This document shows positions 1,930-9,808 of a stretch of 39,605 nt of DNA, one piece after another; within the stretch, counting starts at the first letter, position 1; the number at the start of each line of letters is the position of its first letter. Both the position numbers and the translations under genes were made by a program. The notes beneath the pieces were generated by a model. The model ran no database searches and was not told the DNA's origin. It worked only from the letters and a program-made list of their open reading frames with translations. Source of the DNA: a virus. The stretch lies in IMG/VR virus record IMGVR_UViG_3300025121_000009; one strand, 5' to 3'.

Positions 1930-2499
1930 TTATTCCTTTAATAGTTTAGATATTTTATCTGCAATCTCATCATAAGCATAATTCCCCTTGTTGTGTATAT
2001 CATTCGTAACAAGTTTTAACATAAACAACTCCTCTTTAGTAAATGTCCTCTCGGATAGTAGTTGAGATATAAAATCTCTTAAATCTTCCTCATTAGCTTC
2101 TTTTCCGTCTATCATAAAATATTCTCCATCTTCCCAAGTAATTCTTTTCCTCCACTCCTCTTGCTTCTCTGGTTCTTTATTGCTAGTAGTATATACATCT
2201 CCTGTATAAAACACCCTAACAGGTTCTTCTTTAATTCTTAAATCCCAATACTCTAAAAGCTTTTCTAAATCAGTCCTAAAATTCTCTGCTACAAATCCAT
2301 CAAGTTCATCATAAGTGTTCCACCTATCCAACATCTTCTGTAAATATTCTTTTACTTCTATCCCCCCTGGTCGCTTCTGGGATTGGTTGAATGCTTCTAT
2401 AAGCTCGTTAAGCTTACTCATTATTCCCCATTCACTACTTGTTATATCAAGAGGGTCTTTCCTCAAATCCAGATTACTTAACTTCTCTATCTTCTTCAT
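1930..2499 (-). CDS. Mosaic paralog family member 3 (189 aa)
   Basis: Shares the modules NQSQKRPG, PEKQEEWRKRITW and SQLLSER with the other members. A 24-nt exact match (tccactcctcttgcttctctggtt) occurs at 2150-2173 and 281-304. Confidence 0.6.
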   Translation of the reverse strand: MKKIEKLSNLDLRKDPLDITSSEWGIMSKLNELIEAFNQSQKRPGGIEVKEYLQKMLDRWNTYDELDGFVAENFRTDLEKLLEYWDLRIKEEPVRVFYTGDVYTTSNKEPEKQEEWRKRITWEDGEYFMIDGKEANEEDLRDFISQLLSERTFTKEELFMLKLVTNDIHNKGNYAYDEIADKISKLLKE

Positions 2500-2502
2500 A
2501 GG

Positions 2503-2988
2503 TTATTCCTTTACTTTTAATTTAGATAACCTCCTCATAACAAAACCCTCTGCTTCTCTAAGTGTTGTAAACTTGTTCATATCTGAATATCCACTTTCAC
2601 CTTCCACCTGTACTACCTCCCATTCAAACTTTCTGGTCAAAGGATTCTTTATCCTTATTACACTGAATACTTCATTTCCACGACTAAATAGGTATTGGTA
2701 CTTCCCAAATATCTGTGTTTTTGGGCTAATTCTTTCAAATTCCAGCCACTGTTCATGTATCACCCTTGTCTTCTTTATCCCTTCTGTTGCCTTTATTGGC
2801 TCCACCTCTAAATCCTCTAGCTCTTTATTCCTTGTGAACGCCATATCTACACATAAATCAATAGCCTCCTCTGCATCACTTTTTATCTCTGGTTGCTTCT
2901 GGGATTGGTTAAGGTAATCTATTATCTCGTTGATTTTAAGCTTCATAGTTACTTCACTATATCCACTCATCTTCTCTATCTTATCCAT
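2503..2988 (-). CDS. Mosaic paralog family member 4 (161 aa)
   Basis: Contains NQSQKQPE. A 22-nt exact match (tctggttgcttctgggattggt) occurs at 2889-2910 and 559-580. Confidence 0.6.
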   Translation of the reverse strand: MDKIEKMSGYSEVTMKLKINEIIDYLNQSQKQPEIKSDAEEAIDLCVDMAFTRNKELEDLEVEPIKATEGIKKTRVIHEQWLEFERISPKTQIFGKYQYLFSRGNEVFSVIRIKNPLTRKFEWEVVQVEGESGYSDMNKFTTLREAEGFVMRRLSKLKVKE

Positions 2989-3304
2989 TGTTTTTACTTT
3001 GTTTAATGTTATCTAACTCTTTCTCAATATCATCTACTAAAACATACTCTAATGTGACCCTATATCCGTGTTCCTCTTTTTCTATTTTGTAATTAGTTTT
3101 CTTCTTTAGTACCTCCTCTAACACCTCCCTTTTTGCTTCTTGTCTAACCTCGTTTATCTTTTCAGTCATATGGTCTGCAAGTTCCCCTATATTTACTCCA
3201 CATAGAGGACAGTTCATATGTTTTTGTTCGTCTGAATGGTAAATAGCAATCATCTTTATTAAATGTTCTGACCACTCTCTAATCTCTTTCTCCTGCTGTG
3301 TCAT
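2981..3304 (-). CDS. Hypothetical protein (107 aa)
   Basis: ORF overlapping the next gene by 8 nt. It has a single CPLC motif and nothing else recognisable. Confidence 0.5.
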   Translation of the reverse strand: MTQQEKEIREWSEHLIKMIAIYHSDEQKHMNCPLCGVNIGELADHMTEKINEVRQEAKREVLEEVLKKKTNYKIEKEEHGYRVTLEYVLVDDIEKELDNIKQSKNNG

Positions 3305-3709: not shown

Positions 3710-3725
3710 TGATTAAATTAAACTA
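3710..3725 (-). promoter_or_regulatory. Conserved box TAGTTTAATTTAATCA, 25 nt (box start to ATG) upstream of gene 3332..3700
   Basis: 16-nt exact match with 4914-4929. Confidence 0.4.
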
Positions 3726-4904
3726 ACCTTTAACAACAGCTAGCGGCTTTAACTCTACCAGTATCTTTGTTAAATCTTTCTGGTTTTCCATAACAACATC
3801 TATATCCTTATATGCTTGAGGAGCTTCTCCAAAGTCTAGATTACCTTTTCTATCCTTTCCCCACCTACCGTATACAACCCCCTCCATAGATTTGTCTGCC
3901 TCTTCTAGAGTTATGTTTCTACTTGCTTCCATTCTACCCATTTTCCTACCCGCTCCGTGTGAACAACTCATAAAGGATTGAACATTTCCCAGTCCCTCTG
4001 TTATATAGGACTTAGTACCCATAGACCCTGGAATAATTCCAACCTCTCCTAGCCTTGCACTTGTAGCACCTTTTCTATGAACCCATACATTCCTACCCAT
4101 GTGGTTTTCCAGTCTTGCGTAGTTGTGTGCTATGTTAATTATCTCTTCTGCTTTATAATCGCCAAGAGTATCAGCTACAACACCCATGACCCTCTCCATC
4201 ATCAGTTTCCTATTCGCAAATGCAAAGTCCACACAATACTGCATTTCCTGTATATAATCTTGACCCTCTTTAGTGTCGGTAGGTAGATATGCTAAGTCTT
4301 GTTCTACAACATTTGGTATATACCACTTCTTAGCTAATTCAATAGCTTTTGCATTGTAGTAATCACACACTTGCTTACCAAGATTTCTACTACCAGAATG
4401 TATCATTATCCACAATTCACCCTCGCTACTTCTTTGTAGTTCTATAAAGTGATTACCACCACCAAGCGTTCCTATTTGTGTAAGGGCGTTGTCATACTCC
4501 TGAGCTACAACGACACCATTAGCACTTTTGCTATTACTAAATGGCATTAGGCTCTCCTCTTGTTTCTTCTGGTGGTGTGCAAACCCAACTGGTACAACCT
4601 TTCTTATTCCACCCAATGTTTCTTTTAATTGTTCCTGCGTAATATCCTCTGTTTTTATATGAGTATTAACTACACACATACCACAACCTATATCTACGCC
4701 CACCATATTAGGGCTAATAACATCAGCAAGAGCTACAACCCCACCAATAGGCATTCCGTACCCTTGATGACTATCTGGCATTACTGCAACCCACTTGTAT
4801 ACAAAAGGTAGGTTAGCAATATTTTTAATCTGCTCCATAGCACCATCCTCGATATCTTCTAACCATAGTTTTACCTGTATCTTTTCAGTATTTATTTCTT
4901 TCAT
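3723..4904 (-). CDS. rtcB: RtcB-family 3'-phosphate/5'-hydroxyl RNA ligase
   Basis: 393 aa carrying RtcB hallmark blocks: DSHQGYGMPIGGV, GGGNHFIELQ, IHSGSRNLG, AHNY, HRKGAT, IIPGSMG and SCSHGAGR. Confidence 0.9.
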   Translation of the reverse strand: MKEINTEKIQVKLWLEDIEDGAMEQIKNIANLPFVYKWVAVMPDSHQGYGMPIGGVVALADVISPNMVGVDIGCGMCVVNTHIKTEDITQEQLKETLGGIRKVVPVGFAHHQKKQEESLMPFSNSKSANGVVVAQEYDNALTQIGTLGGGNHFIELQRSSEGELWIMIHSGSRNLGKQVCDYYNAKAIELAKKWYIPNVVEQDLAYLPTDTKEGQDYIQEMQYCVDFAFANRKLMMERVMGVVADTLGDYKAEEIINIAHNYARLENHMGRNVWVHRKGATSARLGEVGIIPGSMGTKSYITEGLGNVQSFMSCSHGAGRKMGRMEASRNITLEEADKSMEGVVYGRWGKDRKGNLDFGEAPQAYKDIDVVMENQKDLTKILVELKPLAVVKG

Positions 4905-4913
4905 CTTCTCTTT

Positions 4914-4929
4914 TGATTAAATTAAACTA
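4914..4929 (-). promoter_or_regulatory. Conserved box TAGTTTAATTTAATCA upstream of rtcB, preceded by AAGGAG
   Basis: Exact 16-nt repeat of 3710-3725. The GGAG ends exactly 25 nt before the ATG. Confidence 0.4.
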
Positions 4930-4946
4930 CTCCTTAATAACTCATG

Positions 4947-5211
4947 ACGGACATCCTCTTACTACTTTTTGGTGTGCTTCTTCCAAAAGGGTTTAATTAC
5001 TACCCACAAGAAGCGTAGTTACCATTTAGAGGTCTGTCCGTTTGAATTATCAAAGAGCTAATAACCTGTATGAGATACTCTGGGAACTTACTACTGAGTT
5101 GGCAGTGCCGTTCTTCACTGCTTCTTCTAGGATAGTTGTTTCCCTCGCTCTCCATTATGCTACTAAGATGATAGTAAGTCGCACTTCGCATTCTCACCAA
5201 AGTACCTCATA
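4947..5211 (-). ncRNA. Candidate structured ncRNA made of two adjacent domains, each closed by a long stem; class unknown
   Basis: Domain A (5069-5211): an 11-bp closing helix pairs TATGAGGTACT with AGTATCTCATA. Nested inside are a 9-bp helix (5172-5180 with 5085-5093) and the hairpin GCAGTG/CACTGC (5102-5121). Domain B (4947-5041): ACGGACA..CCTCT pairs with AGAGG..TGTCCGT. Nested inside are GCTTCTT/AAGAAGC and GGGT/ACCC. The region has no convincing CDS. Confidence 0.4.
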
Positions 5212-5310
5212 CAAATTATTAAAAGAACTGGTAGGTGCAACTGTTTTATTCTTAGTATTCAACAGAACCCAACAAATCTTTGTTGTAGCCTTTATTTAAC
5301 ACCCACCATA

Positions 5311-5382
5311 TTGCAGGGGTTAGAATTGAACTAACTACTCTTAGGCTATGAACCTAAAGTGCAACCGTTACACTTCCCTGCG
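5311..5382 (-). tRNA. tRNA with CAU anticodon (Met; initiator-like C1xA72 mismatch; Ile2 not excluded)
   Basis: A hand fold gives a full cloverleaf. Acceptor CGCAGGG/CCCTGCA with C1 opposite A72. D arm GTGT-AACGGTT-GCAC. Anticodon arm TTAGG-TTCATAG-CCTAA. Variable loop GAGTA. T arm GTTAG-TTCAATT-CTAAC. Discriminator A. No CCA is encoded. Confidence 0.8.
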
Positions 5383-5485
5383 ATGTTACCTGTGCCTTAG
5401 CTCCAGACTTAGCGTGGTGTCGTTTAAGAATTGCTATAATTAAATGTCCACATCCAGAACCAGGGTACAAGTAACACCCTAATTT

Positions 5486-6181
5486 TTAATTCATTTCTAA
5501 AAGAGCTTTTTGTACATTACCCATCCAAGTTGTAGTGTGGTCGTTCCCTGTATATCTCTTGGCTTTCTCGTAATTAGTAGCTACATCGCTATAATACTTT
5601 CCAATACCCCTACAAATAACCTTTGCCATTTCCTCTTGGCTTGGATCATAACTTCTATTTCCGTTATAAAAATACCCAAAATAGTTTGTGTCTCTGTTTG
5701 TATTTTTTCCCATCCCTGTCTCTGCTACACTTATTGCAACTACAAGTTTAAGTGTTGGTATATCACAATAATTTCTCAAGTGTTTAATGTAACTTGTGTC
5801 ATACTCCCCACCATACCTTGTAATATATTTTTCAATATTATCTGGAAGGGGCTGTGGTGCCTCTAAAACCTCTTGTTTTTGTGGAGTGGTCTGTTGAGCC
5901 ACAGGGGACACCTCTCTAATTTCTAGGGGCACTACAGGGGCTTGGGTAATAGTTTGAGTAGTCGCCTGTACTTGCCTTTGCTCGTTTGTGGTTATCCAAC
6001 CCTTGTCTACTAGCAAATCTAGTAAAACATATATCGCTAGAATTAGTAAAATAAGTACTAACACTCTCCTAGCTATAACCTCTCCTCTTTTTTGTCCGTC
6101 AAAGAGATCAACACCCATAACGCTACCAACAACCTTATTTCTAAGTCTGCTAGTCTTTTCTTTTAAATTAATTACCTTCAT
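5486..6181 (-). CDS. Membrane-anchored protein with a possible glucosaminidase-like (peptidoglycan hydrolase) C-terminal domain
   Basis: N-terminal TM segment VLVLILLILAIYVLLDLLV. The C-terminal block AISVAETGMGKN..TNYFGY resembles the ALESGWG..NNLFG signature. Based on weak motifs only. Confidence 0.4.
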   Translation of the reverse strand: MKVINLKEKTSRLRNKVVGSVMGVDLFDGQKRGEVIARRVLVLILLILAIYVLLDLLVDKGWITTNEQRQVQATTQTITQAPVVPLEIREVSPVAQQTTPQKQEVLEAPQPLPDNIEKYITRYGGEYDTSYIKHLRNYCDIPTLKLVVAISVAETGMGKNTNRDTNYFGYFYNGNRSYDPSQEEMAKVICRGIGKYYSDVATNYEKAKRYTGNDHTTTWMGNVQKALLEMN

Positions 6182-9524: not shown

Positions 9525-9808
9525 TTCCAATCTCCTTTTTAAAGAACTTGAGGTATTACCTCTTGAGGCTCAGAATTGAACACTCAACAGAGTTGGTAAT
9601 GGCGCAGTAAGTCCTAGTTGTAGTCTACAAGATTGAGTGTGCTAGTTATGTGTATTACCAACCCTATTAAGTTTTCAACGAGCCTTAAACACCTTCCTGT
9701 CTTTAAACTCCGATTTTTTCCCAGGGTTCCATTGGCTAATGGGTCTAATGTAACCCACTATTCTTGAATAAACCTCACATCTTTGTCTTGTTATCATGTT
9801 TCTATGTC

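What the first reader, a model, noticed from the sequence alone, without database searches (positions are those of the whole stretch)
4947..5211. Two adjacent long-stem structured RNA domains with no coding potential between the tRNA and rtcB
Domain A (5069-5211) is closed by an 11-bp helix, TATGAGGTACT with AGTATCTCATA (one G-U pair). A 9-bp helix (GACTTACTA with TAGTAAGTT) and a 6-bp hairpin (GCAGTG/CACTGC) are nested inside it.

Domain B (4947-5041) is closed by a 7+5 bp interrupted helix, ACGGACA..CCTCT with AGAGG..TGTCCGT. A 7-bp helix (GCTTCTT/AAGAAGC) and a GGGT/ACCC hairpin are nested inside it.

That degree of nested complementarity in 265 nt of an otherwise tightly packed genome is unlikely to be spacer DNA. 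Known RNAs that neighbour rtcB or phage tRNAs (Y-RNA-like YrlA, ROOL, GOLLD) come to mind, but I cannot assign it to any of them by eye. It may be a new class.
Basis: seen in the sequence. Interest (0 to 1): 0.7.

Follow-up and report, generated by a model that had tools for sequence, protein, structure and literature searches.

The report
Phage structured-RNA array with invariant clamp helix
The gap between a phage tRNA gene and its RNA-ligase gene (rtcB) encodes several real, evolutionarily supported structured RNAs. One belongs to an undescribed phage RNA family: a sequence-invariant 15-bp helix carrying freely swapped tips, sitting where sister phages keep Y RNAs and Ro60.

Summary
All genes lie on the minus strand. 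The 580 nt between a 231-aa gene and rtcB (3723-4904) hold module U, tRNA-Met, module D0, domain A and domain B. Each folds far better than shuffles (z -3.0 to -6.7).

Domain A belongs to a family of 18 distinct phage or metagenome copies. All share a 25-bp closing helix. Its inner 15 bp are sequence-invariant (TATGAGGTACTTTGG / CCAGAGTATCTCATA, two fixed wobble pairs); the only changes are A-U to G.U, plus one terminal A-to-U that unpairs the end pair. The outer 10 bp covary. The interior ranges from a 32-nt hairpin to weakly tRNA-like domains. In the window it is unique and not tRNA-like.

The nearest relative has 88-99% identical flanks but unrelated A and B interiors. Domain B and D0 also have relatives.

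Rfam finds nothing here: not YrlA, ROOL or GOLLD. The window encodes no Ro60. Three sister phages, however, carry YrlA-like arrays plus Ro60; in L182 this is shown to be the same genomic slot.

My best reading is co-transcribed, processed stable RNAs with a protein-docking clamp, analogous to Y RNA. The function is inferred, not shown.

The parts
5384..5476 (-). Module U: a long irregular hairpin between the stop of the 231-aa gene and the tRNA
   Evidence: Fold -30.5 kcal/mol, z = -3.25. Its ends are conserved in L001. By eye, relatives carry structured sequence with a shared YCUGGA...AAUCUGGRG motif at the same place.
5310..5383 (-). tRNA-Met (CAU) with a C1xA72 mismatch and no encoded CCA
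   Evidence: ARAGORN. Rfam tRNA 47.7 bits. 98.6% identical in L001.
5229..5308 (-). Module D0: a three-way junction (8-10-bp closing stem, two hairpins, near-invariant GGUUC between them)
   Evidence: z = -3.0. Homologues in L103, L191 and L198: RNAalifold gives 24 pairs, 7 with compensatory changes. A fifth copy in L325 was seen by eye. D0 is absent from the closest relative L001.
5219..5228 (-). Punctuation motif GTTCTTTTAA that precedes domain A
   Evidence: The same motif (GYTCTTWWAA) precedes A in nearly all family members and precedes the Y-RNA arrays of L182, L200 and L201. B starts with a variant, GCTCTTTGATAA. In the window as a whole it is not enriched: 4 matches against 1.65 expected.
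5197..5221 (-). Domain A clamp, 5' strand: outer variable 10 nt (5212-5221) and inner 15 nt TATGAGGTACTTTGG (5197-5211)
   Evidence: 25-bp helix, 94.9% paired across 18 distinct members. 7 pairs have changes on both sides, and 0 of 500 shuffles reach the observed value on 4 of 5 measures.
5084..5196 (-). Domain A interior (cargo): a branched fold with the 9-bp helix and the GCAGUG/CACUGC hairpin. It is unique to this phage.
   Evidence: Folds. 51% identity (random level) to the L001 interior, although the flanks are 93-97% identical. No homologue in any fetched locus. Not tRNA-like by ARAGORN, even at relaxed thresholds.
5059..5083 (-). Domain A clamp, 3' strand: inner CCAGAGTATCTCATA (5069-5083, nearly invariant across the family) and outer variable 10 nt (5059-5068)
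   Evidence: The 3' strand is identical in 17 of 18 members; L107 ends in T instead of A.
5043..5058 (-). Domain B base stem, 5' strand: GCTCTTTGATAATTCA
   Evidence: Conserved in L001, L059, L115 and L191. Pairs with 4929-4944 through 4 G.U pairs.
4945..5042 (-). Domain B interior: a second long helix (ACGGACA/UGUCCGU, CCUCU/AGAGG) with a branched tip. It is unique to this phage.
   Evidence: Inner part alone z = -3.3; full B z = -6.3 to -6.7. The interiors of L001, L059 and L191 are unrelated in sequence, yet each continues the helix.
4929..4944 (-). Domain B base stem, 3' strand: TGAGTTATTAAGGAGT. It contains an AAGGAG that lies too far (about 24 nt) from the rtcB ATG to serve as its ribosome-binding site.
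3723..4904 (-). rtcB (3'-phosphate/5'-OH RNA ligase), immediately downstream and probably co-transcribed
   Evidence: Pfam RtcB 1.2e-116; PHROG tRNA splicing ligase 3.5e-125.

Best explanation
The stretch 4929-5476 (minus strand) is an array of stable structured non-coding RNAs: U, tRNA-Met, D0, A and B. It is transcribed with the flanking genes and cut into separate molecules by host tRNA- and double-strand-processing nucleases.

Shown here:
- Domain A is a member of an undescribed phage RNA family.
- The family is defined by a 25-bp clamp helix. Its inner 15 bp are fixed in sequence, including a G.U and a U.G pair.
- The tip of the helix is a freely exchanged cargo module. It is a plain hairpin in some phages, a weakly tRNA-like domain in others, and a unique branched fold here.
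- Domain B is a second clamp of the same design, a conserved G.U-rich base stem with an unrelated long-helix interior in each phage.

Inferred, not shown:
- The invariant helix is a sequence-specific docking site for a protein, or a processing site. The clamp presents or stabilises the cargo.
- The array works like the Y-RNA/Ro60/RtcB RNA-repair and quality-control modules: a tRNA-like RNA plus a long-hairpin RNA, processed from one precursor.
- It may act as a scaffold or decoy for host RNA-handling enzymes during infection, rather than as a cis-regulator of rtcB.
For: RNA, on the sense strand:
- Minus-strand fold z = -6.8 against -3.6 for the plus strand.
- The helices are rich in G.U pairs that would be A.C mismatches on the other strand.
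- In the invariant core the 5' strand changes only by A to G, that is A-U to G.U. The one change on the 3' strand (L107) breaks the terminal pair.
- The element always lies in the orientation of the surrounding genes. This holds even in L002, where those genes are divergent from rtcB.

Selection on structure:
- 25-bp helix, 94.9% paired in 18 distinct copies. 7 pairs have double changes, 26 cells against 10.6 expected, and 0 of 500 shuffles reach the observed value. Slid controls pair at 35-50%.

Selection on sequence:
- The 15-bp core is conserved although neighbouring proteins are mostly unrecognisable between members at blastp 1e-5.

Cargo exchange:
- Window against L001: rtcB 88%, upstream gene 94.5%, tRNA 98.6% and stems 93-97% identical, but the A and B interiors are at 50-51%.
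- Interior lengths range from 32 to 169 nt.

tRNA-like cargo in relatives:
- D-arm and T-arm motifs are visible by eye.
- With scoring thresholds relaxed to 80-90%, ARAGORN calls L001, L064, L080 and L103 as full-length intron-bearing tRNA-like sequences. In these calls the inner 7 bp of the clamp serve as the acceptor stem.

Y-RNA analogy:
- L182 shares the upstream gene and has, at the same slot, YrlA-like units (48.5 bits, E 1e-9) followed by TROVE + vWA_Ro60.
- L200 and L201 show the same arrangement upstream of their Ro60 genes, at 37.7 and 53.5 bits.
- All three arrays follow the same GTTCTTTWAA motif.
- PMC4201824 reports that characterised bacteria have one tRNA-like Y RNA plus one long-hairpin Y RNA, and that in M. 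smegmatis the two are processed from a single precursor. It also reports that in D. radiodurans Yrn1 the 5'/3' stem sits at the acceptor position, as it does here.

Not rtcB-specific:
- The downstream gene differs in most members.
Against: - There are no expression, end-mapping or binding data. Processing and the protein partner are inferred only.
- No Ro60 gene was found among the window's ORFs, nor within about 4 kb of any other A-family copy.
- The clamp lacks GNCGAAN0-1G. It also lacks the AC(A/G)G(A/U)UACUUC motif of the sister-phage Y units; the only resemblance is G-UACUU.
- The Rfam YrlA model gives no hit in the window at E <= 10.
- The window's own cargo is not tRNA-like, and its internal helices have no comparative support.
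- The family is small, 18 copies in IMG/VR plus 241 million metagenome records. Shared ancestry may therefore inflate the apparent conservation.
- Sequence-invariant inverted repeats could also serve at the DNA level.
Confidence: 0.5

Rival explanations
1. These are true Y RNAs. The invariant helix of A, and/or the ACGGA-type stem of B, is a divergent Ro60-binding site, and the RNAs work with a host-encoded Ro60 (Rsr) and PNPase, with the phage supplying only RtcB.
For: - Synteny with YrlA-like arrays plus Ro60 in L182, and the same kind of array upstream of Ro60 in L200 and L201.
- The rsr-yrlBA-rtcBA type of linkage is known (PMC4201824, PMC7790460).
- The pairing of a tRNA-like RNA with a long-hairpin RNA matches Y RNA sets.
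- B in the window begins AACGGA and B in L001 begins GUACAGA, like the ACRGA stems of the sister-phage Y units. The 3' strand of B in L001 contains CAGUUACUUC, identical to the Y-unit motif.
- L059 and L139 carry GGCGAA right after the clamp.
Against: - There is no Ro60 in the window or near any A copy.
- The YrlA model gives no hit.
- GNCGAAN0-1G is absent from the window's clamp.
- The host is unknown, and only about 5% of bacteria encode Ro60 (PMC4201824).
- The motif resemblances are short and were found by eye.
Confidence: 0.15
2. These are cis-acting mRNA elements: RNase III or RNase E processing and stability hairpins, or antitermination-type signals. They punctuate the early operon and set the expression of downstream genes, here rtcB. 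The tips are irrelevant filler.
For: - The long helices (25-30 bp, few bulges) flank or enclose RNAs, as in rRNA and T7 processing stems (own knowledge).
- The element always sits between co-oriented ORFs, often 30-45 nt before the next start codon.
- The tips tolerate any sequence or length.
- UUCUUUU just 5' of A can pair with the purine-rich stretch before the rtcB ATG in both the window and L001, with an A-to-G change keeping a U.G pair.
Against: - RNase III does not need an invariant 15-bp sequence.
- Several tips carry conserved tRNA-type T-arms and D-arms, which filler would not.
- No terminator or promoter signal accompanies the element.
- The downstream genes are unrelated across members.
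Confidence: 0.2
3. It is a DNA-level element. The invariant inverted repeats would be a recombination, replication or mobile-cassette site (MITE-like or attC-like), and the RNA folds would be a by-product.
For: - Sharp cassette-like replacement of the interiors between 88-99% identical flanks.
- Two copies with different interiors in one contig (L324 and L328).
- The location is near Erf/Rad52-type and DnaD-like replication-recombination genes.
Against: - Both differences between the two arms, and all variation inside the core helix, are of the kind that keeps G.U pairing on the sense strand only.
- The sequences outside the core are complementary and covary, rather than forming direct target-site duplications.
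- Orientation always follows the genes.
- No transposase or integrase is consistently nearby; one locus (L100) has an ORF that looks TnpB-like by eye.
Confidence: 0.1
4. These are decaying tRNA pseudogenes or junk with accidental structure and no function.
For: - Weak, degenerate tRNA features in some relatives.
- A small, lineage-restricted family.
Against: - Near-perfect conservation of 30 nt while the flanks diverge, together with compensatory changes. Neither is expected of pseudogenes.
- The phage genome is otherwise tightly packed.
Confidence: 0.05

Closest known systems
Bacterial Y RNAs: D. radiodurans Yrn1, YrlA (Rfam RF02553), and the long-hairpin YrlB/Yrn2
   Same: - A long stem formed by the 5' and 3' ends plus a variable or tRNA-like module.
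- In Yrn1 the stem sits at the tRNA acceptor position, as in the tRNA-like members of the A family (PMC4201824).
- One tRNA-like RNA plus one long-hairpin RNA per locus; in M. smegmatis the two come from a single precursor.
- Linkage with RtcB and Ro60 genes. The sister phage L182 has YrlA-like arrays plus Ro60 in the same slot, and L200 and L201 have the same arrays upstream of Ro60.
   Different: - No Ro60 gene in this phage.
- No GNCGAAN0-1G or GGUCCGA motif in the clamp.
- The YrlA model does not match.
- YrlA has the opposite order, T-arm before D-arm.
- The window's cargo is not tRNA-like.
- The invariant part here is a fully paired 15-bp duplex, not a bulged helix read mainly on one strand.
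tRNA and tRNA mimics (the tRNA-like domain of tmRNA)
   Same: Several relatives have U8-G9-G10-type starts, class-II-like D-arms (UGGUGGAAUAGGUAGACGC) and T-arms (GGUUCAAAUCC) closed by a 7-bp stem that continues into the clamp.
   Different: - No call by ARAGORN at default settings or by Rfam.
- Large insertions at the anticodon position.
- No CCA or discriminator context.
- The acceptor stem continues as an 18-bp extension.
- The window's copy has none of these features.
- No tmRNA call.
Processing stems of stable-RNA operons (RNase III stems around rRNA, T7 early-mRNA sites) and virus tRNA-linked small RNAs (T4 species 1 and 2 RNAs; MHV68 tRNA-miRNA TMERs). From own knowledge.
   Same: Small structured RNAs are strung next to a tRNA and enclosed by long helices made of their flanks. 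This suggests release by tRNA-processing and double-strand-specific nucleases.
   Different: Those stems are not sequence-invariant across diverged genomes and do not carry interchangeable cargo. No processing data exist here.
ROOL and GOLLD large phage-associated RNAs
   Same: Phage-borne, near tRNA genes, highly structured.
   Different: No Rfam match at gathering score or at E <= 10. The modules here are far smaller (80-165 nt each) and have a different architecture.

Membership tests
Y RNA (YrlA/Yrn type) | Encoded within a few kb of, and on the same strand as, a Ro60 (TROVE) gene | tested here: not met
   No TROVE domain among 41 window ORFs scanned with Pfam. tblastn with the L182 Ro60 finds none in any A-family locus. 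The feature is met only in sister phages that lack the A clamp.
Y RNA (YrlA/Yrn type) | Ro60-binding motif GNCGAAN0-1G (bacteria) or GGUCCGA (animals) on the 5' strand of the terminal stem | tested here: not met
   The clamp 5' strand is UAUGAGGUACUUUGG, which does not contain the motif. The window interior has UGCGAAG, and L059 and L139 have GGCGAAUAG, both imperfect.
Y RNA (YrlA/Yrn type) | Match to the Rfam YrlA covariance model (RF02553) | tested here: not met
   No hit at E <= 10 in window 4700-5600 or in L001. The same model scores 37.7-53.5 bits (gathering score 69) on sister-phage units.
Y RNA (YrlA/Yrn type) | Long stem formed by the 5' and 3' ends that closes a large loop or module | tested here: met
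   25-bp helix with covariation.
Y RNA (YrlA/Yrn type) | tRNA-like module (T-arm, D-arm) in at least one RNA of the locus | tested here: not met
   The window's A, B and D0 give no ARAGORN or Rfam tRNA-like signal. Weak signal in the relatives L001, L064, L080 and L103 only.
Y RNA (YrlA/Yrn type) | Physical binding to Ro60 | not testable with these tools
   Needs a gel-shift or co-immunoprecipitation assay.
tRNA | Cloverleaf recognised by ARAGORN or the Rfam RF00005 model | tested here: not met
   Only the bona fide tRNA-Met at 5310-5383 is called. The window's cargo is not called even at 80% thresholds.
ROOL / GOLLD / tmRNA / group I intron / self-cleaving ribozymes | Match to the corresponding Rfam covariance model | tested here: not met
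   Nothing at the gathering score in the whole window. Nothing at E <= 10 in 4700-5600 except the tRNA and one chance snoRNA hit.
New 'invariant-clamp' phage RNA family (defined here) | TRTGRGGTACTTTGG ... CCAGAGTATCTCATA arms that pair, extended by about 10 covarying bp, sense to the flanking genes, usually preceded by GYTCTTWWAA | tested here: met
   Window 5059-5221 has all of these features.
Protein-coding gene or pseudogene | An ORF with a detectable protein homologue, or codon-like conservation | tested here: not met
   No Pfam or PHROG hit at E <= 1 for the overlapping ORFs. The relatives differ by wholesale replacement and by length changes not in multiples of three.

The most novel reading that the evidence does not exclude
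The invariant 15-bp duplex is a universal 'socket' recognised by an as yet unknown phage or host protein. The tips are RNA cassettes exchanged between co-infecting phages. This would be a modular RNA-cargo system, an RNA counterpart of gene cassettes. Its cargoes would include intron-bearing tRNA mimics and unique folds that act as decoys or substrates for host RNA-targeting defences and for RtcB- or Ro60-type repair.
Probability: 0.2. Interest if true: 0.8.

Novelty: new variant of a known kind. Interest (0 to 1): 0.6.

Why it matters
Phage non-coding RNAs other than tRNAs are poorly catalogued. This locus shows three things.

- There is a hotspot in one group of podophages where structured RNAs, tRNAs, RtcB and Ro60 replace one another. 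This ties phage RNA-repair genes to dedicated RNA partners.
- An RNA family is conserved the opposite way round from riboswitches and ribozymes: the stem is invariant and the core is free. That pattern points to a sequence-specific duplex reader and to cargo exchange.
- Sister phages carry arrays of Y-RNA-like units that score below Rfam's threshold. These could extend the known range of Y RNAs and give a tractable system for asking what Y-like RNAs do during infection.

If the clamp binds a defined protein, it could also serve as a natural scaffold for displaying RNAs.

Tried and rejected
- **Rfam:** searched on the window, on L001 and L005, on 13 relatives, on 5 further loci and on the Ro60 loci. 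Nothing matched in A-family loci except true tRNAs. All 8 searches are used.
- **tRNA and tmRNA finders:** run on all relatives. No calls at default thresholds.
- **Coding potential:** no support.
- **GenBank phages:** no match by blastn to the region or to a clamp construct at E <= 10, where only chance hits appeared. The capsid protein finds only relatives at 35% identity or less, so the host is unknown.
- **Bacterial and archaeal genomes:** the 17-mer of the 5' arm gives 23 hits, all in unrelated contexts and none with the 3' arm. No prophage copy was found.
- **Metagenome scan:** 45 hits, of which most are chance matches.
- **The 231-aa upstream protein as an RNA partner:** it has a predicted membrane helix and no Pfam or PHROG family. 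Its 122 homologues served only as synteny anchors.
- **A protein that co-occurs with the clamp:** the paralogous coiled-coil-like genes downstream are not specific to clamp-bearing loci.
- **Targets for the invariant 3' strand elsewhere in the window:** none beyond chance.
- **The GYTCTTWWAA motif as a genome-wide promoter:** 4 sites against 1.65 expected, which is not significant.
- **Promoter and terminator scan:** nothing informative inside the array.
Full report
**Setting**

The window looks like a near-complete genome of a podophage of about 39.6 kb. It has an SU10-type capsid, portal, adaptor and terminase, and every convincing ORF is on the minus strand. The finding lies between tRNA-Met(CAU) at 5310-5383 and rtcB at 3723-4904 (Pfam RtcB 1e-116). 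Upstream of the tRNA is a 231-aa membrane protein gene (5486-6181) with no family assignment.

**Checking the observation**

| Segment (minus strand unless noted) | Result |
|---|---|
| Whole 405-nt gap | -128.9 kcal/mol, z = -6.8 |
| Whole gap, plus strand | z = -3.6 |
| Domain A with full stem (5059-5221) | z = -5.5 |
| Domain B with base stem (4925-5058) | z = -6.7 |
| D0, 80 nt directly after the tRNA (5229-5308) | z = -3.0 |
| U, between the upstream gene and the tRNA (5384-5476) | z = -3.25 |

ORFs overlapping the region have no Pfam or PHROG match even at E <= 1.

**Known families**

Rfam 15 finds only the tRNA in the whole window at gathering thresholds. In 4700-5600 at E <= 10 it finds only the tRNA and one chance snoRNA hit. 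There is no YrlA, ROOL, GOLLD, tmRNA, intron or ribozyme match. The same holds for relatives.

**Relatives of domain A**

RtcB relatives in IMG/VR gave one close phage, L001, with 95% RtcB amino-acid identity.

Aligning the two intergenic regions shows an identical tRNA and identical stems for A and B, no D0 in L001, and completely different interiors. By nucleotide identity:

| Segment, window vs L001 | Identity |
|---|---|
| rtcB | 88% |
| upstream 231-aa gene | 94.5% |
| tRNA-Met | 98.6% |
| stem segments | 93-97% |
| A interior | 51% (random level) |
| B interior | 50% (random level) |

Pattern scans with the two arms found 18 distinct copies in total. The scans covered viral contigs and metagenomes. 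Loci anchored on the upstream protein added more. No copies were found in 185,579 bacterial and archaeal genomes or in GenBank phages.

All copies share the arms TRTGRGGTACTTTGG and CCAGAGTATCTCATA. I joined the flanks and arms of each copy into one ungapped alignment. On that alignment the 25-bp helix behaves as follows:
- It is 94.9% paired.
- 7 pairs change on both sides, in 26 cells against 10.6 expected.
- 0 of 500 shuffles reach the observed value on four of five measures.
- Sliding the partner by 1-3 columns drops pairing to 35-50%.
- The outer 10 bp covary; for example, one pair is GC 5, AU 4, UG 4, GU 2, CG 1, UA 1.
- The inner 15 bp include one G.U and one U.G pair in all 18 copies.
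- The 5' strand changes only by A to G, which turns A-U into G.U.
- The 3' strand is identical in 17 of 18 copies. The L107 exception breaks the terminal pair.

This pattern, and the many G.U pairs, fit an RNA on the gene-sense strand. They do not fit a DNA palindrome or an antisense RNA. The element is co-oriented with its neighbouring genes in every locus, including L002, where those genes run opposite to rtcB.

**What sits inside the clamp**

Interiors range from 32 nt to 169 nt.
- L002, L325 and L130 have a simple hairpin.
- Several relatives start with U-G-G and a class-II-type D-arm (L001 and L107: UGGUG(U/G)AAUAGGUAGACGC).
- Several end with a T-arm directly abutting the clamp. Examples are L080 GUGGGUUCAAAUCCCUACC, L064 GUAGGGUUUGAAUCCCUACC, and similar sequences in L111, L103 and L328.

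ARAGORN calls none of them at default thresholds. At thresholds relaxed to 80-90%, it calls L001, L064, L080 and L103 as full-length, intron-bearing tRNA-like sequences. Those calls use exactly the inner 7 bp of the clamp as the acceptor stem.

The window's own interior gets no such call and has no homologue in any fetched locus. Only a short motif, AUCUUAGUAGC, is shared with L059 and L139, seen by eye. The helix is therefore the conserved feature, and the tip is cargo.

**Domain B and D0**

B has a 14-16-bp base stem with four G.U pairs, conserved in the window, L001, L059 and L191, and on its 5' side in L115. In the four complete copies the interior is unrelated in sequence, yet it continues the stem as a second long helix: ACGGACA.., GUGUACAGAAGUAAG.., GAAUACUUACCGUUAG.., UUUCUGGGGGUUG... 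Full-length z-scores are -4.4 to -6.3. The 5' and 3' base sequences of B resemble the outer stem of A (UCUUUnAUAAUU / RGUUAUUA), so B looks like a duplicate clamp without the invariant core; this is by eye.

D0 has homologues in L103, L191 and L198. RNAalifold predicts 24 pairs, 7 of them with compensatory changes among only four sequences. A fifth copy precedes the clamp in L325.

**Genomic slot and the Y-RNA connection**

Only the window and L001 have rtcB next to the clamp, so the element is not an rtcB-specific device.

The upstream 231-aa protein has 122 homologues, and looking downstream of several of them shows a variable RNA island.
- In L182 the slot holds 660 nt of very structured RNA (z = -12.7), followed by a TROVE + vWA_Ro60 protein. 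Rfam YrlA scores 48.5 bits there (E 1e-9 in that search, below the gathering score of 69).
- Two further Ro60 phages, L200 and L201, score 37.7 and 53.5 bits.
- These arrays contain 3-5 units, each starting AC(A/G)G(A/U)UACUUC. They are enclosed in their own long clamp helix.
- They follow the same GTTCTTTWAA motif that precedes domain A.

The published description of bacterial Y RNAs matches the general design. There is one tRNA-like RNA plus one long-hairpin RNA per locus. In M. smegmatis the two come from a single precursor. Linkage to rtcB is reported. In D. radiodurans Yrn1 the terminal stem sits at the acceptor position (PMC4201824).

Membership nevertheless fails for the window:
- There is no Ro60 among the 41 ORFs scanned, and none near any clamp copy.
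- There is no GNCGAAN0-1G motif in the clamp.
- There is no YrlA model hit.
- There is no tRNA-like module.

The resemblances that remain are short and were found by eye: G-UACUU in the clamp, ACGGA and ACAGA starts in B, and CAGUUACUUC in the 3' strand of B in L001.

**Interpretation**

Shown:
- A multi-module structured RNA array on the sense strand.
- A new family with an invariant 15-bp duplex inside a covarying 25-bp clamp.
- Wholesale exchange of the tips between near-identical phages.
- Placement in a slot where sister phages carry Y-like RNAs and Ro60.

Inferred:
- The modules are released from a common transcript by tRNA-processing and double-strand-specific nucleases.
- The invariant duplex is read by a protein in a sequence-specific way.
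- The RNAs act in trans as scaffolds or decoys in RNA repair or quality control, analogous to Y RNAs.

Rivals are a cis-acting processing or stability element, true Y RNAs using a host Ro60, a DNA-level cassette or recombination site, and junk. The tRNA-type arms in several cargoes and the invariant sequence argue against plain RNase III hairpins. Sense-strand-only wobble pairing and covarying flanks argue against a DNA element. Strong conservation argues against junk.

**Limits**

- The family is small and lineage-restricted, so shared ancestry contributes to the conservation statistics.
- The shuffle control does not correct for phylogeny. The slid-partner control does, and it is clear.
- The internal helices of the window's own A and B interiors rest on thermodynamics alone.
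- The host is unknown.

**Verdict**

This is a real and partly novel feature. It is a new variant of the clamp-stem plus variable-module kind of stable RNA best known from Y RNAs. Its function is unproven.

Noticed in passing
window 5229-5308 (-); L103:285-371, L191:3899-3977, L198:4541-4627, L325 (upstream of its clamp): D0 is a separate conserved small RNA: a three-way junction with a near-invariant GGUUC between two hairpins. Seven of its 24 pairs show compensatory changes among four sequences. It is absent from the closest relative L001, so it behaves as an insertable module.
   Followed up: partly
window 5384-5476 (-): Module U is a structured hairpin (z = -3.25) between the 231-aa gene and the tRNA. 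Relatives have different but structured sequence at the same place, sharing a YCUGGA...AAUCUGGRG motif (by eye).
   Followed up: partly
L182:3733-4391, L200:1900-2500, L201:2160-2500: Sister phages encoding Ro60 (TROVE + vWA) carry arrays of 3-5 Y-RNA-like units. Each unit starts AC(A/G)G(A/U)UACUUC, and the array is enclosed in a long outer clamp. Rfam YrlA scores 37.7-53.5 bits, below its gathering score of 69, so these units would be missed by standard annotation.
   Followed up: partly
window 5219-5228 (-), 9538-9547 (-); many loci: The motif G(T/C)TCTT(T/A)(T/A)AA marks the start of RNA modules. In several relatives it directly follows, or overlaps, the stop codon of the upstream gene (TAGTTCTTTAAAA). 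Its role is unknown; it could be a processing site or a promoter element. It is not enriched across the window as a whole.
   Followed up: partly
window 5310-5383 (-): The tRNA-Met(CAU) has a C1xA72 mismatch, an initiator-like feature. It lacks the three G-C pairs in the anticodon stem and has no encoded CCA. It could be an initiator, an elongator or a tRNA-Ile2-type tRNA.
   Followed up: no
L001:4183-4256; also L002, L003, L005, L007, L023: Relatives carry a tRNA-Pro(UGG) immediately downstream of rtcB. The window has none there; a 122-aa DUF7448 ORF follows rtcB directly.
   Followed up: no
L115/L080, about 100 nt upstream of their clamp: A class-II (tRNA-Leu-like) pseudo-tRNA with a normal 7-bp acceptor stem, a GCCG-UUA-CGGC variable arm, the T-loop UGCAAAU and an 11-nt 'anticodon' loop. 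ARAGORN does not call it. Its D-arm and T-loop resemble the cargo of the L001 clamp.
   Followed up: no
L324 and L328 (both from IMGVR_UViG_3300002220_004406): One phage contig carries two clamp copies. One has a 32-nt hairpin tip. The other has a tip containing two T-arm-like motifs.
   Followed up: no
L100, about 1.5 kb downstream of its clamp (386-aa ORF): An ORF that looks like TnpB (IS605 OrfB type) by its N-terminal sequence. It was not scanned against Pfam.
   Followed up: no
window 1930-3304 (-): Three tandem paralogous genes (107, 161 and 189 aa) of unknown function lie downstream of rtcB. Relatives occur in several clamp-bearing loci, but also in L187, which lacks the clamp.
   Followed up: partly
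window 9675-9797 (-): A 40-aa ORF (MITRQRCEVYSRIVGYIRPISQWNPGKKSEFKDRKVF...) resembles, from memory, the C-terminal glycyl-radical region of anaerobic ribonucleotide reductase NrdD. It sits in an 860-nt stretch containing only small ORFs and further hairpins. Not tested.
   Followed up: no
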